This document shows positions 20,769 to 35,515 of a DNA stretch of 35,654 bases, piece by piece. The notes under the pieces are model-generated. The model was not told where the DNA came from. It did not search any database and was given only the letters and a program-made list of their open reading frames with translations. Each line of letters begins with the position of its first letter. The stretch's first letter is position 1. A program made the translations under genes and the position numbers. This DNA is from a virus, in UHGV virus genome UHGV-0232315. One strand, written 5' to 3'.

Positions 20769-23700
20769 TAACAACTTGCGGCTGCAGGTCATTCTTAATG
20801 CGGTTGACAAACTCACCCGCCCATTCCGTGTTGCACAGGCCAGTTCGGAAGAGCTGGCTGGCGCAATCAGAAACTCCCGTGACGCATTAAAGCAACTTAA
20901 TCAGGCGGGTAATAGCCTGGAAAAATTTCGCAAGCTGCAGGCTGATAACAAGAAGTTAGGCGACAGGCTGAACTATGCCAGACAGAAGGCTAATTTGCTT
21001 AGCTCTGAGCTGGAGGCGATGGAACAACCATCACAACGGCACCTTGTGGCTTTAGGTCGGCAAACGCTGGCAGTCCAACGCCTGGAAGAACAGCAAAAAT
21101 ATTTGCAGAAGCAAACGGCGCTTGTGCGTGCAGAACTGTACCGGGCGGGAATTTCTGCGAAAGATGATGCGGGAGCAACTGCCCGTTTAGCCCGTGAAAC
21201 ATCACGTTATAACCAGGAATTGTCGAAACAGGAGGCGCGGCTGAAGCGACTGGGTGAAGCTCAGCGCAGGATGAATGCGGCGCGTGCCAGTTATGCCCGT
21301 TCGCTGGAGGTGCGCGATCGTATTGCAGGAGCCGGAGCCACTACCACGGCTGCAGGGCTGGCAATGGGGACGCCAGTGATGGCGGCAGTAAAAAGCTATA
21401 CCAGCATGGAAGATGCCATGAAAGGTGTGGCAAAGCAGGTCAATGGTCTGCGTGACGATAATGGAAACCGTACTGCACGTTTTTATGAAATGCAGGATGC
21501 CATCAAGGCTGCCAGCGAACAGTTGCCGATGGAAAACGGTGCGGTGGACTTCGCTGCACTGGTTGAAGGTGGTGCGCGCATGAACGTCGCAAACCCTGAC
21601 GACAGCTGGGAAGACCAGAAACGTGACCTGCTGGCCTTCGCCAGTACGGCAGCAAAGGCGGCAACAGCCTTTGAGCTGCCAGCGGATGAACTGTCAGAAA
21701 GTCTGGGGAAAATCGCCCAGCTCTACAAAATACCTACCCGCAATATTGAACAGCTCGGCGATGCGCTGAACTATCTGGATGATAACGCCATGTCGAAAGG
21801 GGCGGACATCATTGATGTGATGCAACGTCTGGGCGGTGTGGCTGACCGTCTGGATTATCGTAAAGCGGCGGCACTGGGTTCCACCTTTCTGACACTGGGC
21901 GCTGCGCCGGAGGTTGCAGCCAGTGCAGCAAACGCGATGGTGCGTGAATTGTCCATTGCCACCATGCAAAGCAAGAGTTTCTTTGAAGGGATGAATCTGC
22001 TGAAACTCAATCCTGAAGTGATTGAAAAGCAGATGACGAAGGATGCTATGGGAACTATCCAGCGTGTGCTGGAGAAGGTGAACGCACTGCCGCAGGACAA
22101 GCGTCTGTCTGCCATGACCATGTTGTTTGGTAAAGAGTTTGGCGATGACGCGGCGAAACTGGCAAACAACCTGCCGGAACTACAGCGCCAGCTAAAACTG
22201 ACAGCGGGCAATGATGCGCTCGGTTCCATGCAGAAAGAATCCGACATCAACAAGGACTCACTTTCTGCTCAGTGGTTGCTGGTTAAAACCGGAGCGCAGA
22301 ATACCTTCAGCAGCCTGGGCGAAACGCTGCGCCAGCCGCTGATGGATATTCTGTACACGGTGAAAAGAGTTACGGGAGCGTTGCGTCGCTGGGTGGAAGC
22401 TAACCCGGAACTGACGGGCACACTGATGAAAGTAGCCGCTATTGTGGCTGCGGTTACCGTAGGCCTCGGCACCTTGGCTGTGGCGCTGGCTGCAGTGCTG
22501 GGGCCGCTGGCAGTCATCCGTCTGGGATTCTCTGTGCTGGGCATCAAAACGTTACCTTCCGTTACGGCAGCAGTAACACGAACCAGCAGCGCGTTGTCCT
22601 GGCTGGCTGGCGCTCCACTGGCAGTGCTGCGACGCGGGCTTGCTTCATCGGGTAACGCAGCGGGTTTACTTACTGCGCCGTTGTCGTCTTTGCGCCGTAC
22701 GGCATCACTGACGGGAAATGTCATGAAAACTGTAGCAGGTGCGCCAGTTGCACTGTTGCGGTCTGGATTATCCGGTTTACGTGCGGTTGCTGTGATGTTT
22801 ATGAATCCACTGGCGGTACTGCGCGGTGGACTGACCGCCGCAGGCGCGGTGCTGCGAGTGCTGGCATCCGGTCCGCTGGCGATGCTGCGCGTTGCTCTGT
22901 ATGCCGTATCTGGTCTGTTAGGTGCTCTGCTCAGTCCGATAGGTCTTGTGGTTACTGCACTGGCGGGCGTGGCGCTGGTTGTCTGGAAATACTGGCAACC
23001 CATCACCGCATTTCTCGGTGGCGTGGTGGAAGGATTCAAAGCGGCGGCAGGTCCCGTCAGTGCAGCGTTCGAACCGCTTAAGCCCGTGTTCCAGTGGATT
23101 GGCGACAAAGTGCAGGCGCTGTGGGGCTGGTTTATTGATCTGCTGACGCCTGTTAAGTCGACCTCTGCCGAACTGCAGAGCGCAGCGGCAATGGGGCGAC
23201 GATTCGGGGAGGCACTGGCGGAAGGGCTGAATATGGTTATGCATCCGCTGGACTCCCTGAAATCCGGTGTTTCATGGTTGCTGGATAAACTCGGCATTGT
23301 CAGTAAAGAGGCTGCAAAGGCGAAACTGCCGGAAAGCGTGACGCGCCAGCAACCTGCGACGGTGAATGCTGACGGTAAAGTGATGATGCCATCGGGTGGT
23401 TTTCCGTCATGGGGATATGGCTTTGCGGGGATGTATGACAGCGGCGGCTATATCCCGCGCGGGCAGTTTGGCATCGTCGGTGAAAACGGGCCAGAAATTG
23501 TTAACGGCCCGGCAAATGTGACCAGCCGGAGAAATACAGCTGAACTGGCTGCCGTTGTTGCCGGAATGATGGGCGTTGCTACCGCGCCTGCAGAGCTTCC
23601 ACCGTTACATCCTTTGGCACTTCCCGCGAAAGGCGGCGAAGCGATGGTGAGTCGTGCAGCCACTGTGCCGCCCGTTCAACGGCTTGAGGCACCGACGCAG

Positions 23701-25804: not shown

Positions 25805-25830
25805 ACAAAAAACCCATTTATGTAAACGGG
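25805..25830 (-). terminator. Weak hairpin plus T-run downstream of int (minus strand)
   Basis: On the minus strand cccgttt-acat-aaatggg is followed by TTTTTT; the stem is short with one mismatch. Confidence 0.3.
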
Positions 25831-25836
25831 TTAATG

Positions 25837-25891: not shown

Positions 25892-26944
25892 TTACGGGGT
25901 AATGCCAACCGCTGCCGCCACTTTGCCGCCACTTGGCAGCGTTGCCAGAGGATTGAAACGGAGCGCCGTTTCCAGATGATCCGGTGCCAGATGAGCGTAA
26001 CGCATAGTCATTTTTATATCGTGATGTCCGAGGATTTTTTGCAAAGCAAGGATATTTCCACCCGACATCATGAAATGTGCCGCAAACGTATGGCGCAGAA
26101 CGTGTGTCAGTTGACCGCGAGGGAGCACGATTGACGTTTTTTCCATCACGGATAAAAATTGAAAATAGCAGTCTGTGAAGAAATTGAACCCATCAAGCGC
26201 CATGATCTCTTCATAAAGCTCTTTACTGATAGGGATGCTTCTGTTTTTCTTCCCCTTCGTTCTTACAAAGGTAATTCGGTATTTAGTCACCTGTGATCGG
26301 GTAAGGTTTATTGCTTCTCGCCAGCGTGCGCCTGTGCTTAAGCATATCTTGACTACCAGTGCCAGAATTGGGTCCTGACGTTTGCAATCAGCCAGCAGTT
26401 CAACAATCTGCTCATGGGTAAGCCATGCCATCTCTTTTTCTGCGATGGTGAATTTTCGCATGTTCTCCAGTGGGTTTGGATACGACCATTCGCCCAGGCG
26501 GGATAGTTCGCTAAAAACACTACTTAGATAGCTTTGCTCCAGGTTAATGGTGACCGGGCTGGCTCCTTTCTTCCATTTCTCGCTGAAGTAGATCTCACCT
26601 GTCAGGCGTTTATCTCGATAGTGGGCAAACATTTTAGAGGTGAGATCGGTTGCAAGAGGATTGCCCAGAGCGTCAACCATCAGCAGCAATTTGTCATAGA
26701 CATGCTGCCCAGCAGTCAGAGATTTACCATGTAATTTGAACCATAGCTCAACCACGTCTTTCAGTGTTCGACGATCCACTGATTCACCTAGCCAAGGCTT
26801 TGCTTCGGTTTCTTCCATCGTGTGACGCTCAAAAGCCAGAGCTTCGCCTTTGGTGGCGAATTGTTTACGCACACGACGTCCACTACGTCCGGCGGGATAA
26901 CATTCGCACAGCCATTTTCCTGTGGTGAGTTTTCGTACTGCCAT
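25892..26944 (-). CDS. int: Tyrosine integrase
   Basis: 350 aa MAVRKLTTGKWLCECYPAGRSGRRVRKQF... with C-terminal ...HVLRHTFAAHFMMSGGNILALQKILGHHDIKMTMRYAHL catalytic region (R..H-x-x-R..Y). Confidence 0.9.
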   Translation of the reverse strand: MAVRKLTTGKWLCECYPAGRSGRRVRKQFATKGEALAFERHTMEETEAKPWLGESVDRRTLKDVVELWFKLHGKSLTAGQHVYDKLLLMVDALGNPLATDLTSKMFAHYRDKRLTGEIYFSEKWKKGASPVTINLEQSYLSSVFSELSRLGEWSYPNPLENMRKFTIAEKEMAWLTHEQIVELLADCKRQDPILALVVKICLSTGARWREAINLTRSQVTKYRITFVRTKGKKNRSIPISKELYEEIMALDGFNFFTDCYFQFLSVMEKTSIVLPRGQLTHVLRHTFAAHFMMSGGNILALQKILGHHDIKMTMRYAHLAPDHLETALRFNPLATLPSGGKVAAAVGITP

Positions 26945-26969
26945 AAAAAAGTCCTCATGTCTGAGGACT
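26945..26969 (-). terminator. Perfect 8-bp hairpin plus T-run immediately upstream of the int start codon (terminator and/or RBS-sequestering structure)
   Basis: Minus strand: AGTCCTCA-gaca-TGAGGACT-TTTTT-ATG; the 3' arm contains the int GAGGA Shine-Dalgarno. Confidence 0.45.
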
Positions 26970-27026
26970 AAATTTAACTGTATGTTTGAACAGTGGTCAA
27001 TGTTTAAAGATCTTCAATCAAACATT

Positions 27027-28358
27027 TCATTGGAGCAAGAAAACTTTTAAGGTGTTTTTGAATATTCTAACAGGGTCTTCTACACCTGCATTTCCTTTTA
27101 AAATATGATAATCACTTATTTCAGCCCATCTGTTTTTTTCATCGTTTTCAGAAGGAAGTAAAGGAGAACCTTCTGGCATATATTTATAAGTTATACCAAA
27201 TAATGCATAATAGTAGATGTTGATGTTATATTGATCTGTCTGATATGGGAGTCTATTAACACCGAAGAAATTAATTATTAATTGTGCATCTATTTTATCT
27301 TCTACGTAGTTAAGGGCCAGTTCACGACCAAACGAATAAAGAATTACTGCAAGGGTTCGATAACAGCAATAGCCTGGTATAAATTTATTGCTGATTTCAT
27401 TTTGAGATAAAATTTGATAAATTTCTAGATATCTTGATAAGGTTTCAACTTCCCGTAGCGACAAGCCTTTTAGTTCGATAAATTTTTGAACTATATGAAT
27501 ACTACTTTCTCCAATTTCTTTTAGTCTTTCAGACTCGTTACATAGCATTCTAAAATGAGAGTTCGAAGCCAAAATTTTATCGTAATTGTTTTCAGTGAAA
27601 GTCACTGGCAGGCTGTAAGTGAATTTTATAAATTTATCAAGATATCTTTCTGAGTCAACACCTGCACCGTAAATATGATTTATTGATGCTTTCAATTGTG
27701 AGATGTTAGCAACTAACAAGAAGTTAAGATTTTCAGTGTCAAAAACATGTTTTATATTTTCGATGATAGAGATGGCAAAGCTTGGTTTACAACGGTCAAG
27801 TTCGTCAATGATAATTGTTATTTTATTTTCGCTAGTTAGTTCAGCAAGTACTTCCTTGAGAGCAAGCAAATGTTTCTTTGCTTCAATATGATCATCAAGC
27901 AGTGCTTCTACAGTACCATCTATAGCTGAGTTAGCCGCATCTTTAATAGCATCTTCGAATTCATCCGCAATATCATCTGCATTTTGTTTTAAAATCCACC
28001 CAGCGCCAGCTTTGAGTACAGTTTTAAGTCCAAATCTCAATGCTGGTAATGCCTTTGATATTAATTCCTTCTTTTCACTCTCTGGATATAATGCAACTAT
28101 TGCAGCCATTATAGTAAGTATGGGAGCATCATTATGATCTTCAGTAAATGCATCAATATATACTACTTTATGCCCAGATTCATTTTTTTCAATCAATGCC
28201 GCTAATTTTTTTGAAAATTCGGTTTTACCGGTACCCCAGTCCCCATCGATAACAATAGGGGATATTTTTAAGGGGGACTCGAGTAAGCTTATTATTTTTT
28301 CAGCAATGATTTTTCTATTATACTCATCTCTGTTTTCAAAAGTCATATCATTATTCAT
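27027..28358 (-). CDS. KAP-family P-loop NTPase
   Basis: Walker A GDWGTGKT (GxWGxGKT KAP signature) and Walker B IIIDELDRC; ORF-track start 28367 is TTG, I place the start at ATG 28358 after AAGG; AT-rich. Confidence 0.65.
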   Translation of the reverse strand: MNNDMTFENRDEYNRKIIAEKIISLLESPLKISPIVIDGDWGTGKTEFSKKLAALIEKNESGHKVVYIDAFTEDHNDAPILTIMAAIVALYPESEKKELISKALPALRFGLKTVLKAGAGWILKQNADDIADEFEDAIKDAANSAIDGTVEALLDDHIEAKKHLLALKEVLAELTSENKITIIIDELDRCKPSFAISIIENIKHVFDTENLNFLLVANISQLKASINHIYGAGVDSERYLDKFIKFTYSLPVTFTENNYDKILASNSHFRMLCNESERLKEIGESSIHIVQKFIELKGLSLREVETLSRYLEIYQILSQNEISNKFIPGYCCYRTLAVILYSFGRELALNYVEDKIDAQLIINFFGVNRLPYQTDQYNINIYYYALFGITYKYMPEGSPLLPSENDEKNRWAEISDYHILKGNAGVEDPVRIFKNTLKVFLLQ

Positions 28359-28369
28359 ATGAAGCAACC

Positions 28370-28555
28370 TTAGTTTTTAGAACATATTTTCTTTGACTTG
28401 CTTTGCGTTCCATCATTGCAAACGAACTTCCCATCAGATGTACAATGTGAAACTCCCCCTTTCTTACCAGAACATGGATAATTTTTTGCAAAACTTGTAA
28501 TAGGTAAAGTAATAAATAAACAAATAAGTAGGATATGTATAGATTTATAAAACAT
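28370..28555 (-). CDS. Small secreted Cys-rich, Lys-rich peptide (predicted signal peptide)
   Basis: ORF 28370-28573; start placed at ATG 28555 after AAGGA; [23 protein letters not shown] then a 38-aa mature part with 4 Cys and 8 Lys; stop lies 11 nt upstream of the NTPase ATG (28358). Confidence 0.5.
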
Positions 28556-28578
28556 ATTTATTTCCTTATACATTAATT

Positions 28579-29142
28579 TTAATAATTGACGATCGCGCTT
28601 CTAATTTTTCCTATGATATCAATTTCATCTATTTTGCATTCAAAGGAACTGCTGCCACCATCGACATTTAGACGACGTCCCGGCAGTCTTGTCAGATTCC
28701 TGATAGCAACCTCGCCATCAATATCAACGATCCACTTACCATCACGTACATCCTCATAATCCGAATCACAGATAAACTCTGATGCGCCATCGATCACAAC
28801 AAAAGGTTTTTTTAGTTTTTCAGGCAAAAAGTTGTTGTCGAAAATGTAGTAACCATCAGGAAGTAGTTTTCCGCTTGATAAAATCTTCCTTTCGATCTCT
28901 TTTGTGTTTTCTTTTTGTGAACTTTCTTTTGAACCTTGCCCAGTAGTTAGCCACTCTAGCGACGTGCCGGTTTCAAGTGCACATTGGATTACCCATTCTG
29001 CCGGGAATGAATCACGCATATAGCGCGTGGCTAAGGTGCTTTTAGAAATGCCCAAATGATCACACAAAGCTTGTCTTGTCTTGAAACCATAGGCTTCAAC
29101 CATGCGCTCTATGGCCCCACGACCGCCTTTTTCCAAATTCAT
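28579..29142 (-). CDS. cI: Immunity repressor CI (phage 186 CI-like)
   Basis: ORF 28579-29148 (GTG); ATG 29142 after GGAG; N-terminal HTH region and C-terminal ...[27 protein letters not shown]... resembling 186 CI. Confidence 0.8.
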
Positions 29143-29267
29143 GGTCACTCCAAGTGAACTTTTACCTTGACGATTTCATGATGTGATCGTATGTTTGCAG
29201 TGTTCACATAATACAAACGATCAGTATTCATCCTGATTAATCATTGCTAAAAGAGGAATGTTGCATC
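29143..29267. promoter_or_regulatory. Lysis-lysogeny switch region (divergent pL/pR-type promoters and operators)
   Basis: Intergenic region between divergent cI and apl; dyads GTGAAC(29155-29160)/GTTCAC(29212-29217) and TGATCGT(29184-29190)/ACGATCA(29217-29223); two GATC sites. Confidence 0.5.
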
Positions 29268-29521: not shown

Positions 29522-30031
29522 ATGTTTGACTATCGCATTTCAAAACATCCCCATTTCAATGAAGCCTGCCGGGCCTTCGCCCTACGACACAACATGGCGA
29601 AGCTGGCAGAGCGCGCAGGTATGAACGTTCAAACCTTGCGTAACAAGCTCAACCCGGAACAACCACACCAACTTACTGCGTCAGATATCTGGCAGTTAAC
29701 CGATCTCACTGAAGACCCAACACTGGTTGATGGATTTCTGGCTCAGATTCACTGCCTGCCATGTATACCGGTAAATGAGGTGGCAAAAGAGAGACTGCCA
29801 CATTACGTCATGAGTGCAACCGCAGAGATCGGGCGTGTTGCTGCAGGTGCGGTGTCTGGCGATGTAAAAACCTGTGCCGGTCGTCGTGATGCTATCAGCA
29901 GCATTAATTCTGTAACACGACTGATGGCGCTGGCGGCTGTTTCATTGCAGGCCCGTTTACAGGCTAATCCTGCGATGGCGAGTGCAGTTGATACCGTGAC
30001 TGGCCTCGGTGCTTCATTTGGTTTGCTGTGA
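29522..30031 (+). CDS. cII: CII-like lysogeny-establishment activator (186 CII-like)
   Basis: 169 aa MFDYRISKHPHFNEACRAFALRHNMAKLAERAGMNVQTLRNKLNPEQPH... resembling 186 CII. Confidence 0.75.
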   Translation: MFDYRISKHPHFNEACRAFALRHNMAKLAERAGMNVQTLRNKLNPEQPHQLTASDIWQLTDLTEDPTLVDGFLAQIHCLPCIPVNEVAKERLPHYVMSATAEIGRVAAGAVSGDVKTCAGRRDAISSINSVTRLMALAAVSLQARLQANPAMASAVDTVTGLGASFGLL

Positions 30032-35362: not shown

Positions 35363-35515
35363 TTACGCGGGTTAACAATTCGTGCTCTTAATAATACCCG
35401 GTATATCAGGCTGATGAACGTAAAAAAACGTTTTACATCAGTAAGATTATTGTATACTGTGAATATAAACAGTGGTTATATATACAGTATTGCGTGTGGT
35501 GTCATAGGAGGAAAA

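What the first reader, a model, noticed from the sequence alone, without database searches (positions are those of the whole stretch)
26945..26969. Perfect hairpin sequestering the int Shine-Dalgarno, directly after the KAP cassette
On the minus strand the sequence AGTCCTCA-gaca-TGAGGACT-TTTTT-ATG places the int GAGGA RBS in the 3' arm of an 8-bp perfect stem that, with the T-run, also looks like an intrinsic terminator for the upstream cI-peptide-KAP transcript. This would uncouple int from lysogenic transcription and/or make int translation depend on an alternative transcript.
Basis: seen in the sequence. Interest (0 to 1): 0.4.

Follow-up and report, generated by a model that had tools for sequence, protein, structure and literature searches.

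The report
Insulating hairpin inside an SOS/CII-controlled int promoter
The hairpin is real and conserved, and it is the last piece of a compact, apparently undescribed control unit in front of a P2/186-like phage integrase gene: a promoter carrying LexA and CII binding sites that should start transcription inside the hairpin, so only that promoter's RNA would have a free ribosome-binding site.

Summary
On the minus strand, AGTCCTCA-gaca-TGAGGACT (26969..26950) is followed by a T-run and the int ATG (26944), and the GAGGA Shine-Dalgarno lies in the 3' arm (-12.2 kcal/mol, z about -3.5).

The hairpin does not belong to the KAP cassette. The 82-nt KAP-int gap is one packed unit found upstream of this int type in 40 of 72 species loci and 80 viral contigs, whatever lies upstream. 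Its parts are:
- a 186-CII-type operator (ATGTTTG-N12-TAAACAT);
- a -35 element, TTGACC;
- a LexA box, CACTGTTCAAACATACAGTT, which scores 19.5 bits, within the range of genuine sites;
- a -10 element;
- the hairpin, whose 5' arm starts 0-3 nt after the -10.

Stem sequences differ between clades, but the pairing and the SD position are kept. The T-run occurs only in the Escherichia/Klebsiella-type clade.

Best reading, all functional steps inferred: read-through RNA from cI-KAP is terminated or has its SD masked. The dedicated promoter starts near 26965, inside the 5' arm, so its RNA is translatable. That promoter would be LexA-repressed and probably CII-activated.

I found no prior description. 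I rate it a new variant of known kinds.

The parts
27000..27025 (-). Inverted repeat ATGTTTG-N12-TAAACAT (distal half 27025..27019, proximal half 27006..27000). It is a candidate operator for the phage CII activator. It starts 1 nt after the KAP stop codon and abuts the -35.
   Evidence: It has the same half-sites as the CII site annotated at pE in phage 186 (ATGTTTG-N13-CAAACAT) and as the window's own pE site. The pattern occurs 3 times in the window against 0.46 expected. Of 57 distinct int-upstream versions, 51 keep a distal half-site scoring at least 6 of 7, at a total length of 26-27 bp (one at 28), with unrelated spacers.
26995..27000 (-). -35 hexamer TTGACC of the proposed int promoter (p_int).
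   Evidence: Found by the promoter scan. It is conserved as TTGACA, TTGACC or TTTACA in 40 loci.
26976..26995 (.). LexA (SOS) box CACTGTTCAAACATACAGTT, lying in the promoter spacer and overlapping the -10.
   Evidence: It is one of only two exact CTGT-N8-ACAG matches in the window. It scores 19.5 bits on a PSSM built from 12 genuine LexA sites, whose leave-one-out range is 13.8-28.6 bits, and it is the second-best of about 35,600 positions. Its geometry matches the recA promoter.
26971..26977 (-). -10 element, either TTAAAT (spacer 17) or TAAATT (spacer 18).
   Evidence: The relatives have TAAAAT or TAAAAA at the same place. The distance from the proximal CII half-site to the -10 (22 nt) equals that at the window's pE.
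26962..26966 (-). Predicted transcription start zone of p_int (best guess 26965), inside the 5' arm of the hairpin.
   Evidence: This is inferred. It is 7 nt after the -10, and 35 nt after the last T of the proximal half-site as at 186 pE. RNA starting at 26965 folds at only -3.5 kcal/mol.
26950..26969 (-).
   Evidence: Conservation and covariation are shown.
26952..26956 (-). Shine-Dalgarno GAGGA of int, inside the 3' arm.
   Evidence: An SD-like purine run lies in the 3' arm in the related loci.
26945..26950 (-). Run of six T (the first is the last stem base). It serves as the terminator U-tract and as the SD-ATG spacer.
   Evidence: It is kept in the Escherichia/Klebsiella/Enterobacter-type clade and absent in other clades.
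25892..26944 (-). int, a tyrosine integrase of 350 aa, 56% identical to 186 Int.
27027..29148 (-). The upstream lysogenic operon whose read-through the hairpin would stop: cI (28579-29148), a 67-aa YdcA-like peptide (28370-28573) and a KAP NTPase (27027-28367), tightly packed.
29522..29548 (.). CII operator of pE (ATGTTTT-N13-CAAACAT on the minus strand), starting at the cII ATG. It is the in-phage reference for the int-proximal repeat.
   Evidence: It is positionally identical to the annotated 186 CII site.
35455..35489 (+). Two overlapping SOS boxes upstream of a tum-like ORF (ATG 35517). They show the phage already uses LexA in the 186 manner.
   Evidence: 20.8 and 17.0 bits. The 186 p95/tum annotation is.
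25811..25832 (-). Terminator-like hairpin with a T-run 60 nt after the int stop. It is the likely end of the int transcript.

Best explanation
The hairpin is the downstream end of a self-contained int expression unit that fills the whole 82-nt gap between KAP and int.

SHOWN BY SEQUENCE AND COMPARISON
- The order of parts is: CII-type operator, -35, LexA box, -10, hairpin holding the SD, T-run, ATG.
- This unit is conserved upstream of this integrase type, whatever lies upstream of it.
- The stem changes sequence between clades but stays paired.
- The stem always begins at or within about 3 nt of the -10.

INFERRED MECHANISM
1. In a lysogen, RNA polymerase coming from pL through cI, the peptide gene and KAP transcribes the complete hairpin. 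In this clade the stem plus six U ends most transcripts. Any RNA that reads through has GAGGA locked in a -12 kcal/mol stem. Int is therefore uncoupled from lysogenic and cargo transcription.
2. The unit's own sigma-70 promoter should start near 26965, inside the 5' arm. Its RNA lacks half of that arm, cannot form the terminator or the SD mask (about -3.5 kcal/mol remains), and is translated.
3. LexA bound to the box in the promoter spacer keeps this promoter off. DNA damage would switch it on together with the phage's tum antirepressor, supplying Int for excision.
4. The operator centred near -38/-58 would let CII activate the same promoter during infection, as CII does at pE. This would make it the functional counterpart of lambda pI.

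Step 4 is the least certain.
For: ANATOMY AND FOLDING.

INDEPENDENCE FROM CARGO
- E. coli relatives carrying only the peptide, or an AAA ATPase, in place of KAP regain homology at about 27003-27006 and keep a hairpin of different sequence. Examples are AGCCCTC..GAGGGCT and GCTCTC..GAGGGC.
- Forty of 72 species loci carry the unit. A chance CTG[TG]N8[AC]CAG match is expected in about 0.5% of loci.
- In Rahnella/Pantoea-type phages the unit follows T-U-D-ogr and a separate GC-rich terminator. Its hairpin there has no T-run but still holds the SD.

HAIRPIN SELECTION
- Module loci fold at a mean of -12.5 kcal/mol with z of -3.5. Non-module int loci fold at -3.9 kcal/mol with z of -0.07.
- Cognate 5' and 3' halves fold at -13.0 kcal/mol, against -6.8 for chimeras between stem classes.
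- Within the close clade, 95.6% of cells are paired, 0 of 500 shuffles reach that value, slid controls give 33-66%, and 2 pairs change on both sides.

START SITE GEOMETRY. The predicted start lies inside the 5' arm in every module locus. RNA folded from that start averages -3.2 kcal/mol.

LEXA BOX
The int box scores 19.5 bits. The three top hits in the window are the two tum boxes and this one, and the next best is 10.0.
- Across the 40 loci the median is 23 bits and the maximum 28.6.
- The geometry equals recA: TTGATA-CTGT..ACAG-TATAAT.

CII OPERATOR
- The half-sites are identical to the annotated 186 site and to the window's own pE site, with the same distance to the -10.
- 186 CII binds at -38/-58 (PMC6593788).
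- The window CII is 68% identical to 186 CII, and residues 21-50 are identical.
Against: - Nothing here is experimental. There is no transcript start, 3' end, LexA or CII binding, or expression data for this phage or any relative.
- The start site is a geometric prediction. If transcription starts 4 or more nt further upstream, the hairpin would be part of the promoter's own mRNA.
- The -35 (TTGACC) is near consensus, unlike the activator-dependent 186 pE. The need for CII is therefore unclear.
- The int-proximal repeat is 1 bp shorter here (26 bp) than at pE (27 bp).
- It is not obvious how CII could activate while LexA sits in the spacer of an uninduced, newly infected cell.
- The T-run is missing in several cI-cargo-int loci (L018, L021, L024, L056, L073, L075), so termination cannot be the general function.
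- Two module loci (L027, L046) have no convincing hairpin.
- Column-wise covariation across all clades could not be measured, because the hairpins are not column-homologous.
Confidence: 0.6

Rival explanations
1. The hairpin is an ordinary intrinsic terminator that ends the cI-peptide-KAP (moron) transcript. Its overlap with the int SD is incidental.
For: It has a GC-containing 8-bp stem followed by six T. It is the only terminator-like site on that strand between cI and int. The T-run is kept in all close relatives.
Against: - The hairpin is kept with any cargo, and with no cargo.
- In other clades it has no T-run, and in clade B a separate terminator lies upstream, yet the stem still contains the SD.
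- The 5' arm is always pinned to the -10 of a conserved promoter.
Confidence: 0.15
2. The hairpin is part of the int mRNA made from the dedicated promoter, with the start site upstream of the stem. It would then damp translation constitutively, act as a 5' stabiliser, or be opened by a factor or by temperature.
For: The start site has not been mapped. Tight limits on integrase synthesis are common. P4 Vis is thought to act on int mRNA (PMC2951348).
Against: The gap between the -10 hexamer and the first paired base is at most 4 nt (0-2 in most loci), or the -10 itself is in the stem, in all clades. A sigma-70 start 6-8 nt after the -10 therefore cannot precede the stem. No alternative -10 exists at a workable distance from the -35.
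Confidence: 0.15
3. The palindrome acts at the DNA level, as a protein binding site, a cruciform, or a recombination junction for cargo exchange.
For: Two alleles of the unit sit in front of int genes that are at least 99% identical, so recombination does occur near here.
Against: Only the pairing is conserved, not the sequence, which argues against a sequence-specific protein site. The cargo boundary lies upstream of the CII-type repeat, not at the hairpin.
Confidence: 0.05
4. The hairpin is a chance palindrome with no function.
For: Perfect 8-bp hairpins are no more frequent in the window than in shuffles: 5 against 3.5 +/- 2.4.
Against: The placement, the conservation in 38 of 40 loci with different sequences, and the contrast with non-module int loci all argue against chance.
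Confidence: 0.03

Closest known systems
Protection of IS transposase genes from outside transcription. In IS10, read-through RNA folds over the ribosome site while pIN starts inside the structure. IS200 has a left-end terminator plus an SD-sequestering stem.
   Same: A recombinase gene is shielded from read-through by a terminator and by a stem that hides the SD. In IS10, the element's own promoter starts within the structure. Sources: PMC4513863; Davis, Simons and Kleckner 1985 as cited in PMC13181058. The IS10 start-site detail comes from my own knowledge.
   Different: Here the gene is a phage tyrosine integrase, and one hairpin does both jobs. The internal promoter carries LexA and CII-type operators. 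No antisense RNA is evident.
Lambda pI, the CII-activated, int-specific promoter
   Same: Both are dedicated int promoters, separate from the main operon promoter, and both are switched on by the phage's CII for lysogenisation. Sources: PMC7708051; PMC2951348.
   Different: 186-type CII is unrelated to lambda CII and binds ATGTTTG-N13-CAAACAT rather than TTGC repeats. There is no sib-type retroregulation here. LexA control is added.
Phage 186 pE (CII-activated) and p95/tum (LexA-repressed) promoters
   Same: The operator sequences and geometry match the experimentally defined 186 elements. The window phage also has its own pE and tum copies.
   Different: [quoted passage not shown] The 186 int ATG overlaps the cI stop, and the Fels-2 int starts 3 nt after cI. 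Here both operator types are combined on one promoter placed in front of int.
LexA-repressed integron integrase (intI) promoters
   Same: A tyrosine recombinase gene is placed directly under SOS control by a LexA box in its promoter. Sources: PMC3323433; PMC3108266 (listed).
   Different: This is a different recombinase family and element. Integrons have no CII input and no SD-masking or terminator hairpin.
Generic Rho-independent terminators at the ends of prophage morons
   Same: The stem-loop plus U-tract lies downstream of accessory genes.
   Different: It belongs to the downstream gene's control unit rather than to the cargo. The SD lies in the stem, and the promoter -10 abuts the stem.

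Membership tests
Intrinsic (Rho-independent) terminator | Stable GC-containing stem-loop immediately followed by a U-tract on the transcribed strand | tested here: met
   8 bp with 4 G-C pairs, loop of 4, -12.2 kcal/mol, six T.
Intrinsic (Rho-independent) terminator | U-tract conserved in orthologous elements | tested here: inconclusive
   Kept in all 27 distinct sequences of the close clade. Absent in Serratia, Yersinia, Kluyvera, Brenneria, Rahnella and Pantoea loci.
Intrinsic (Rho-independent) terminator | Transcript 3' ends at the U-tract | not testable with these tools
   Needs Term-seq or 3'-RACE.
SD-sequestering hairpin that shields against read-through (IS10/IS200 type) | Shine-Dalgarno sequence base-paired within a stable stem | tested here: met
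   GAGGA at 26956..26952 lies in the 3' arm. The same holds in 38 of 40 loci.
SD-sequestering hairpin that shields against read-through (IS10/IS200 type) | Pairing maintained by compensatory change | tested here: met
   More than ten stem classes exist. Cognate halves fold at -13.0 against -6.8 kcal/mol for chimeras. Within the close clade 95.6% of cells pair and 2 pairs change on both sides. All-clade column covariation could not be measured.
SD-sequestering hairpin that shields against read-through (IS10/IS200 type) | The gene's own promoter starts inside or downstream of the 5' arm, so its mRNA escapes the structure | tested here: inconclusive
   Predicted from the position of the -10 and from 186 pE geometry (start near 26965). 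The predicted start lies in the 5' arm in all module loci, and the residual fold averages -3.2 kcal/mol. No mapped 5' end exists.
LexA operator (gamma-proteobacterial SOS box) | Palindrome CTGT-N8-ACAG that scores like genuine sites | tested here: met
   19.5 bits against 13.8-28.6 for 12 genuine sites. It ranks second in the window, and the background 99.9th percentile is -2.2.
LexA operator (gamma-proteobacterial SOS box) | Overlaps core promoter elements | tested here: met
   It lies between the -35 and -10 and overlaps the -10, the same layout as recA.
LexA operator (gamma-proteobacterial SOS box) | Conserved at the orthologous position | tested here: met
   40 loci with int identity of 55-99%, median 23 bits.
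LexA operator (gamma-proteobacterial SOS box) | LexA binding and SOS induction of the gene | not testable with these tools
   Needs EMSA or ChIP, and reporter or RNA measurements.
186 CII-activated promoter (pE type) | 7-bp inverted half-sites ATGTTTG/CAAACAT about two helical turns apart | tested here: met
   ATGTTTG-N12-TAAACAT, 26 bp, against 27 bp at 186 pE and the window's pE. 51 of 57 variants keep the repeat, 50 of them at 26-27 bp.
186 CII-activated promoter (pE type) | Half-sites centred near -38 and -58 | tested here: met
   With a start at 26965 the centres fall at -38 and -57. The proximal half-site lies 22 nt from the -10, as at the window's pE. This depends on the predicted start.
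186 CII-activated promoter (pE type) | Negligible basal activity (weak -35) so that the activator is required | tested here: not met
   The -35 is TTGACC, TTGACA or TTTACA, which is near consensus. Basal activity is more likely held down by LexA.
186 CII-activated promoter (pE type) | Cognate CII encoded by the same phage | tested here: met
   Phage_CP76 protein, 68% identical to 186 CII, with residues 21-50 identical.
186 CII-activated promoter (pE type) | CII binding and activation | not testable with these tools
   Needs footprinting and reporter assays.
Known RNA families (Rfam 15) | Match at the family's gathering score | tested here: not met
   The best hit is RyhB at 23.1 bits against a gathering score of 55. 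No family applies.

The most novel reading that the evidence does not exclude
In a large branch of P2/186-like phages, the textbook rule that int rides on the lysogenic transcript has been replaced by an autonomous 82-nt cassette. The cassette is a promoter that combines CII activation (infection) with LexA repression (DNA damage), and that fires from inside a terminator/anti-SD hairpin. Only its own RNA would make Int, and everything arriving from upstream would be silenced. This insulation would be what allows the cI-int junction to serve as an exchange site for defence genes, and it would tie Int supply for excision directly to the SOS signal.
Probability: 0.5. Interest if true: 0.65.

Novelty: new variant of a known kind. 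Interest (0 to 1): 0.55.

Why it matters
If the model holds, four things follow.

1. It changes how integrase expression is understood in a very common prophage group. About one in five complete E. coli genomes carries this int type.

2. It gives a concrete, compact design in which promoter choice, rather than promoter strength, decides whether an mRNA is terminated and translated.

3. It offers a reason why the cI-int junction tolerates many different defence cargos.

4. It predicts that DNA-damaging antibiotics directly raise Int, and hence excision and mobility, in these prophages.

The unit is small enough to test with a handful of reporter constructs. It might also serve as a portable insulator part.

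Tried and rejected
- RNAalifold on a MAFFT alignment of all 34 distinct -10-to-ATG segments gave no consensus structure. The hairpins sit at different distances from the ATG and are not column-homologous. I used per-sequence z-scores, a cognate-versus-chimera test, and a within-clade pair count instead.
- Rfam returned only sub-threshold noise.
- The frequency of perfect 8-bp hairpins in the window is not above chance, so significance rests on placement and conservation.
- I considered the upstream repeat ATGTWTG..CAWACAT as an RNA hairpin. I rejected this because its total length is fixed at 26-27 bp while the spacers are unrelated and mostly not complementary.
- I considered an IHF site (WATCAANNNNTTR) over the proximal half-site. 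It fits only some clades on reading the sequences, and I did not pursue it.
- I looked for tRNA genes next to int in seven loci and found none.
- Seven of the nine literature searches run, plus reading PMC3448106, found no description of a LexA- or CII-controlled int promoter or of this hairpin in P2/186-like phages. The Christie and Calendar P2 review was not available. Work on P2 int post-transcriptional control that I recall from memory could not be checked.
- The large protein-database and structure tools were not needed.

Full report
WHAT IS THERE

The window is a P2/186-like temperate phage. The relevant genes are D, ogr, int (25892-26944, minus strand), a KAP NTPase (27027-28367), a 67-aa peptide (28370-28573), a 186-type cI (28579-29148), and an apl-like gene and cII on the plus strand.

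On the minus strand the sequence reads AGTCCTCA-gaca-TGAGGACT at 26969..26950. It is followed by T's through 26945 and the int ATG at 26944, and GAGGA sits in the 3' arm. The RNA fold is -12.2 kcal/mol with z = -3.5, and the terminator scan lists it.

A perfect 8-bp hairpin on its own is not unusual in 35.6 kb. There are 5, against 3.5 +/- 2.4 in shuffles. Everything below therefore rests on placement and conservation.

THE HAIRPIN BELONGS TO INT, NOT TO KAP

A megablast of cI-to-int against complete E. coli genomes hit 1127 of 5426 genomes. Most matches cover only int plus about 60 nt upstream and begin at window 27006-26983.

Relatives that carry only the small peptide (L001, L002), or an AAA ATPase (L003), between cI and int have a hairpin at the same spot but with a different sequence. 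Examples are GCTCTC-tattg-GAGGGC and AGCCCTC-tgataa-GAGGGCT, each followed by T's and the ATG.

Among 80 viral contigs whose int is at least 99% identical, the upstream unit occurs in two main alleles plus the window's variant. All have a hairpin and a T-run.

A CONSERVED UNIT FILLS THE WHOLE GAP

In a one-genome-per-species scan, 40 of 72 int loci (int identity 55-99%) carry the same arrangement:
- an inverted repeat ATGTWTG-N12/13-CAWACAT;
- a -35 element TTGACA, TTGACC or TTTACA that overlaps the last T of the repeat;
- CTGT-N8-ACAG in the spacer;
- a -10 element TAAAAT, TTAAAT or TAAAAA;
- a hairpin that starts 0-3 nt after the -10, or that includes the -10's A-run;
- an SD-like purine run in the 3' arm, then the ATG.

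In the window these parts occupy 27025..26945 without a spare base, and the repeat starts 1 nt after the KAP stop.

186-type loci lack the unit. There the int ATG overlaps or abuts the cI stop, as in 186 itself and in Fels-2.

THE HAIRPIN IS UNDER SELECTION AS A STRUCTURE

- The -10-to-ATG segment folds at a mean of -12.5 kcal/mol (mean z -3.5, 33 of 40 below -2) in module loci. In 32 non-module int loci it folds at -3.9 kcal/mol (z -0.07, none below -2).
- There are more than ten different stem sequences. Joining the 5' half of one class to the 3' half of another gives -6.8 kcal/mol on average, against -13.0 for cognate pairs. Only 4.6% of chimeras reach the cognate median.
- Within the close clade (27 distinct sequences), 95.6% of cells pair, 0 of 500 shuffles reach that, slid controls give 33-66%, and two pairs change on both sides. 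The window's own U-A in place of C-G is one of them.
- A column-wise test over all clades failed, because the hairpins are not column-homologous.

WHICH FUNCTION IS CONSERVED

The SD-in-stem feature is present in 38 of 40 loci. The T-run is not universal.
- It is present in the Escherichia/Klebsiella/Enterobacter/Citrobacter/Raoultella-type clade.
- It is absent in Kluyvera, Serratia, Yersinia and Brenneria loci that also have cI-cargo-int.
- It is absent in Rahnella, Pantoea and Pectobacterium-type loci.

In that last group int lies after T-U-D-ogr on the same strand. A separate GC-rich terminator follows ogr, and the full unit comes next.

SD masking is therefore the general property, and termination is an addition in the window's clade. 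In the window, the hairpin is the only terminator-like site on that strand between cI and int.

THE PROMOTER AND THE LEXA BOX

I built a PSSM from 11 MG1655 LexA sites whose sequences I fetched (lexA x2, uvrA, sulA, umuD, uvrB, recN x2, dinI, uvrD, recA) plus the 186 p95 site. That these are genuine LexA sites is established knowledge.
- Leave-one-out scores of the known sites are 13.8-28.6 bits.
- The three best 20-mers in the window are 35455-35474 (20.8 bits), 26976-26995 (19.5 bits) and 35470-35489 (17.0 bits). The next best scores 10.0, and the 99.9th percentile of the window is -2.2.
- The first and third lie upstream of a tum-like ORF that follows gene A, as in 186. The second is the int box.
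- Across the 40 loci the int boxes score 11.7-28.6 bits with a median of 23. Several read TACTGTTTTTATATACAGTA.

THE UPSTREAM REPEAT AND CII

The 186 GenBank record annotates the CII binding site at pE as 23435-23462. This reads ATGTTTG-N13-CAAACAT and starts at the cII ATG. CII half-sites are centred at -38 and -58 of pE (PMC6593788).

The window has the same site at its own cII ATG, 29522-29548. The int-proximal repeat ATGTTTG-N12-TAAACAT uses the same half-sites.

Its proximal half-site is 22 nt from the -10, exactly as at the window's pE. If the annotated low end of the 186 pE promoter feature (23400) is the start site, the start lies 35 nt after the last T of the proximal half-site. Applied here, that gives a start at 26965. 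Adding 7 nt to the end of the -10 gives the same position.

Of 57 distinct versions of this region, 51 keep a distal half-site scoring at least 6 of 7, at a total length of 26 bp (28 versions), 27 bp (22) or 28 bp (1). Their spacers are unrelated. That pattern fits a protein site rather than an RNA stem.

The window CII is 68% identical to 186 CII, and residues 21-50 are identical.

One point does not fit. The -35 is near consensus, unlike the activator-dependent pE.

MECHANISM (INFERRED)

1. Read-through RNA from pL (cI-peptide-KAP) contains the whole hairpin. It is terminated at the U-run or, failing that, has its SD masked.
2. The unit's own promoter starts near 26965, inside the 5' arm. 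Its RNA keeps at most a 4-bp remnant of the stem (-3.5 kcal/mol), so it neither terminates nor hides the SD.
3. LexA would hold this promoter off until DNA damage. CII would boost it during infection.

The nearest known designs are:
- the protection of IS10 and IS200 transposase genes from outside transcription (PMC4513863; Davis et al. 1985 cited);
- lambda pI;
- LexA-controlled integron integrases.

My searches found no description of this unit.

CONTEXT

The cI-int gap in relatives holds varied, defence-like cargo: KAP NTPases, an AAA ATPase, DUF4041+T5orf172, HEPN, AIPR, ASCH, and proteins with no Pfam match. A cI-int defence hotspot has been reported for Vibrio P2 relatives, and an integrase-to-primase hotspot for P2-like phages (PMC9122126, PMC13586616). 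An insulated int gene with its own promoter would make that junction tolerant of insertions.

VERDICT

All functional steps remain predictions. I give the overall model a confidence of 0.6, with the CII input as the weakest part. I rate it a new variant of known kinds, with interest 0.55.

Noticed in passing
window 35455-35489 (+), ORF start 35517: Two overlapping SOS boxes, TACTGTGAATATAAACAGTG and CAGTGGTTATATATACAGTA, precede a tum-like ORF that runs off the window end. They match the 186 p95/tum arrangement after gene A, so the phage is probably SOS-inducible through an antirepressor.
   Followed up: partly
window 29522-29548: The CII operator of pE (ATGTTTT-N13-CAAACAT on the minus strand) starts exactly at the cII ATG, as in phage 186. 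It is conserved in most cI-bearing relatives.
   Followed up: yes
window 27027-28573; loci L003, L006-L025, L047, L056, L061, L073, L075: The gap between cI and the int control unit is a cargo exchange site. Contents include KAP NTPases, an AAA ATPase, DUF4041+T5orf172, HEPN_Swt1, AIPR, ASCH, and several proteins with no Pfam match. Similar hotspots are reported for other P2 relatives.
   Followed up: partly
window 28370-28573 (-); L001/L002 2188-2379: A 63-67-aa peptide with a hydrophobic N-terminus and conserved cysteines (RefSeq name 'YdcA family protein') follows cI directly, both here and in relatives without other cargo. It has no Pfam hit and its function is unknown.
   Followed up: no
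viral loci L085-L164, 110 nt upstream of int: Int genes that are at least 99% identical sit behind two different alleles of the control unit, with different hairpin, -10 and -35-to-box spacing. This implies recombination very close to the int start codon.
   Followed up: partly
L027-L046, L079 (for example L036 653-6056): In Rahnella, Pantoea, Pectobacterium and related prophages, int lies directly after T-U-D-ogr on the same strand. This is the opposite orientation to P2 and 186. A terminator after ogr comes first, then the full CII-site/LexA-box/hairpin unit.
   Followed up: partly
window 29190-29216 (cI-apl intergenic region): A further repeat-like sequence, TTGTATTATGTGAACACTGCAAACAT, resembles the CII half-sites and is conserved in L004 and L023 at the same place. 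It lies in the pR/pL switch region and its meaning is unclear.
   Followed up: no
window 25811-25832 (-): A terminator-like hairpin, AACCCGTTTACATAAATGGGTT plus TTTT, lies 60 nt after the int stop, between int and ogr where attP is expected.
   Followed up: no
literature (PMC2669165): The P2-like prophage Sp13 of E. coli O157 Sakai is reported to be induced by mitomycin C by an unexplained route. I did not check whether Sp13 carries tum or this int unit.
   Followed up: no
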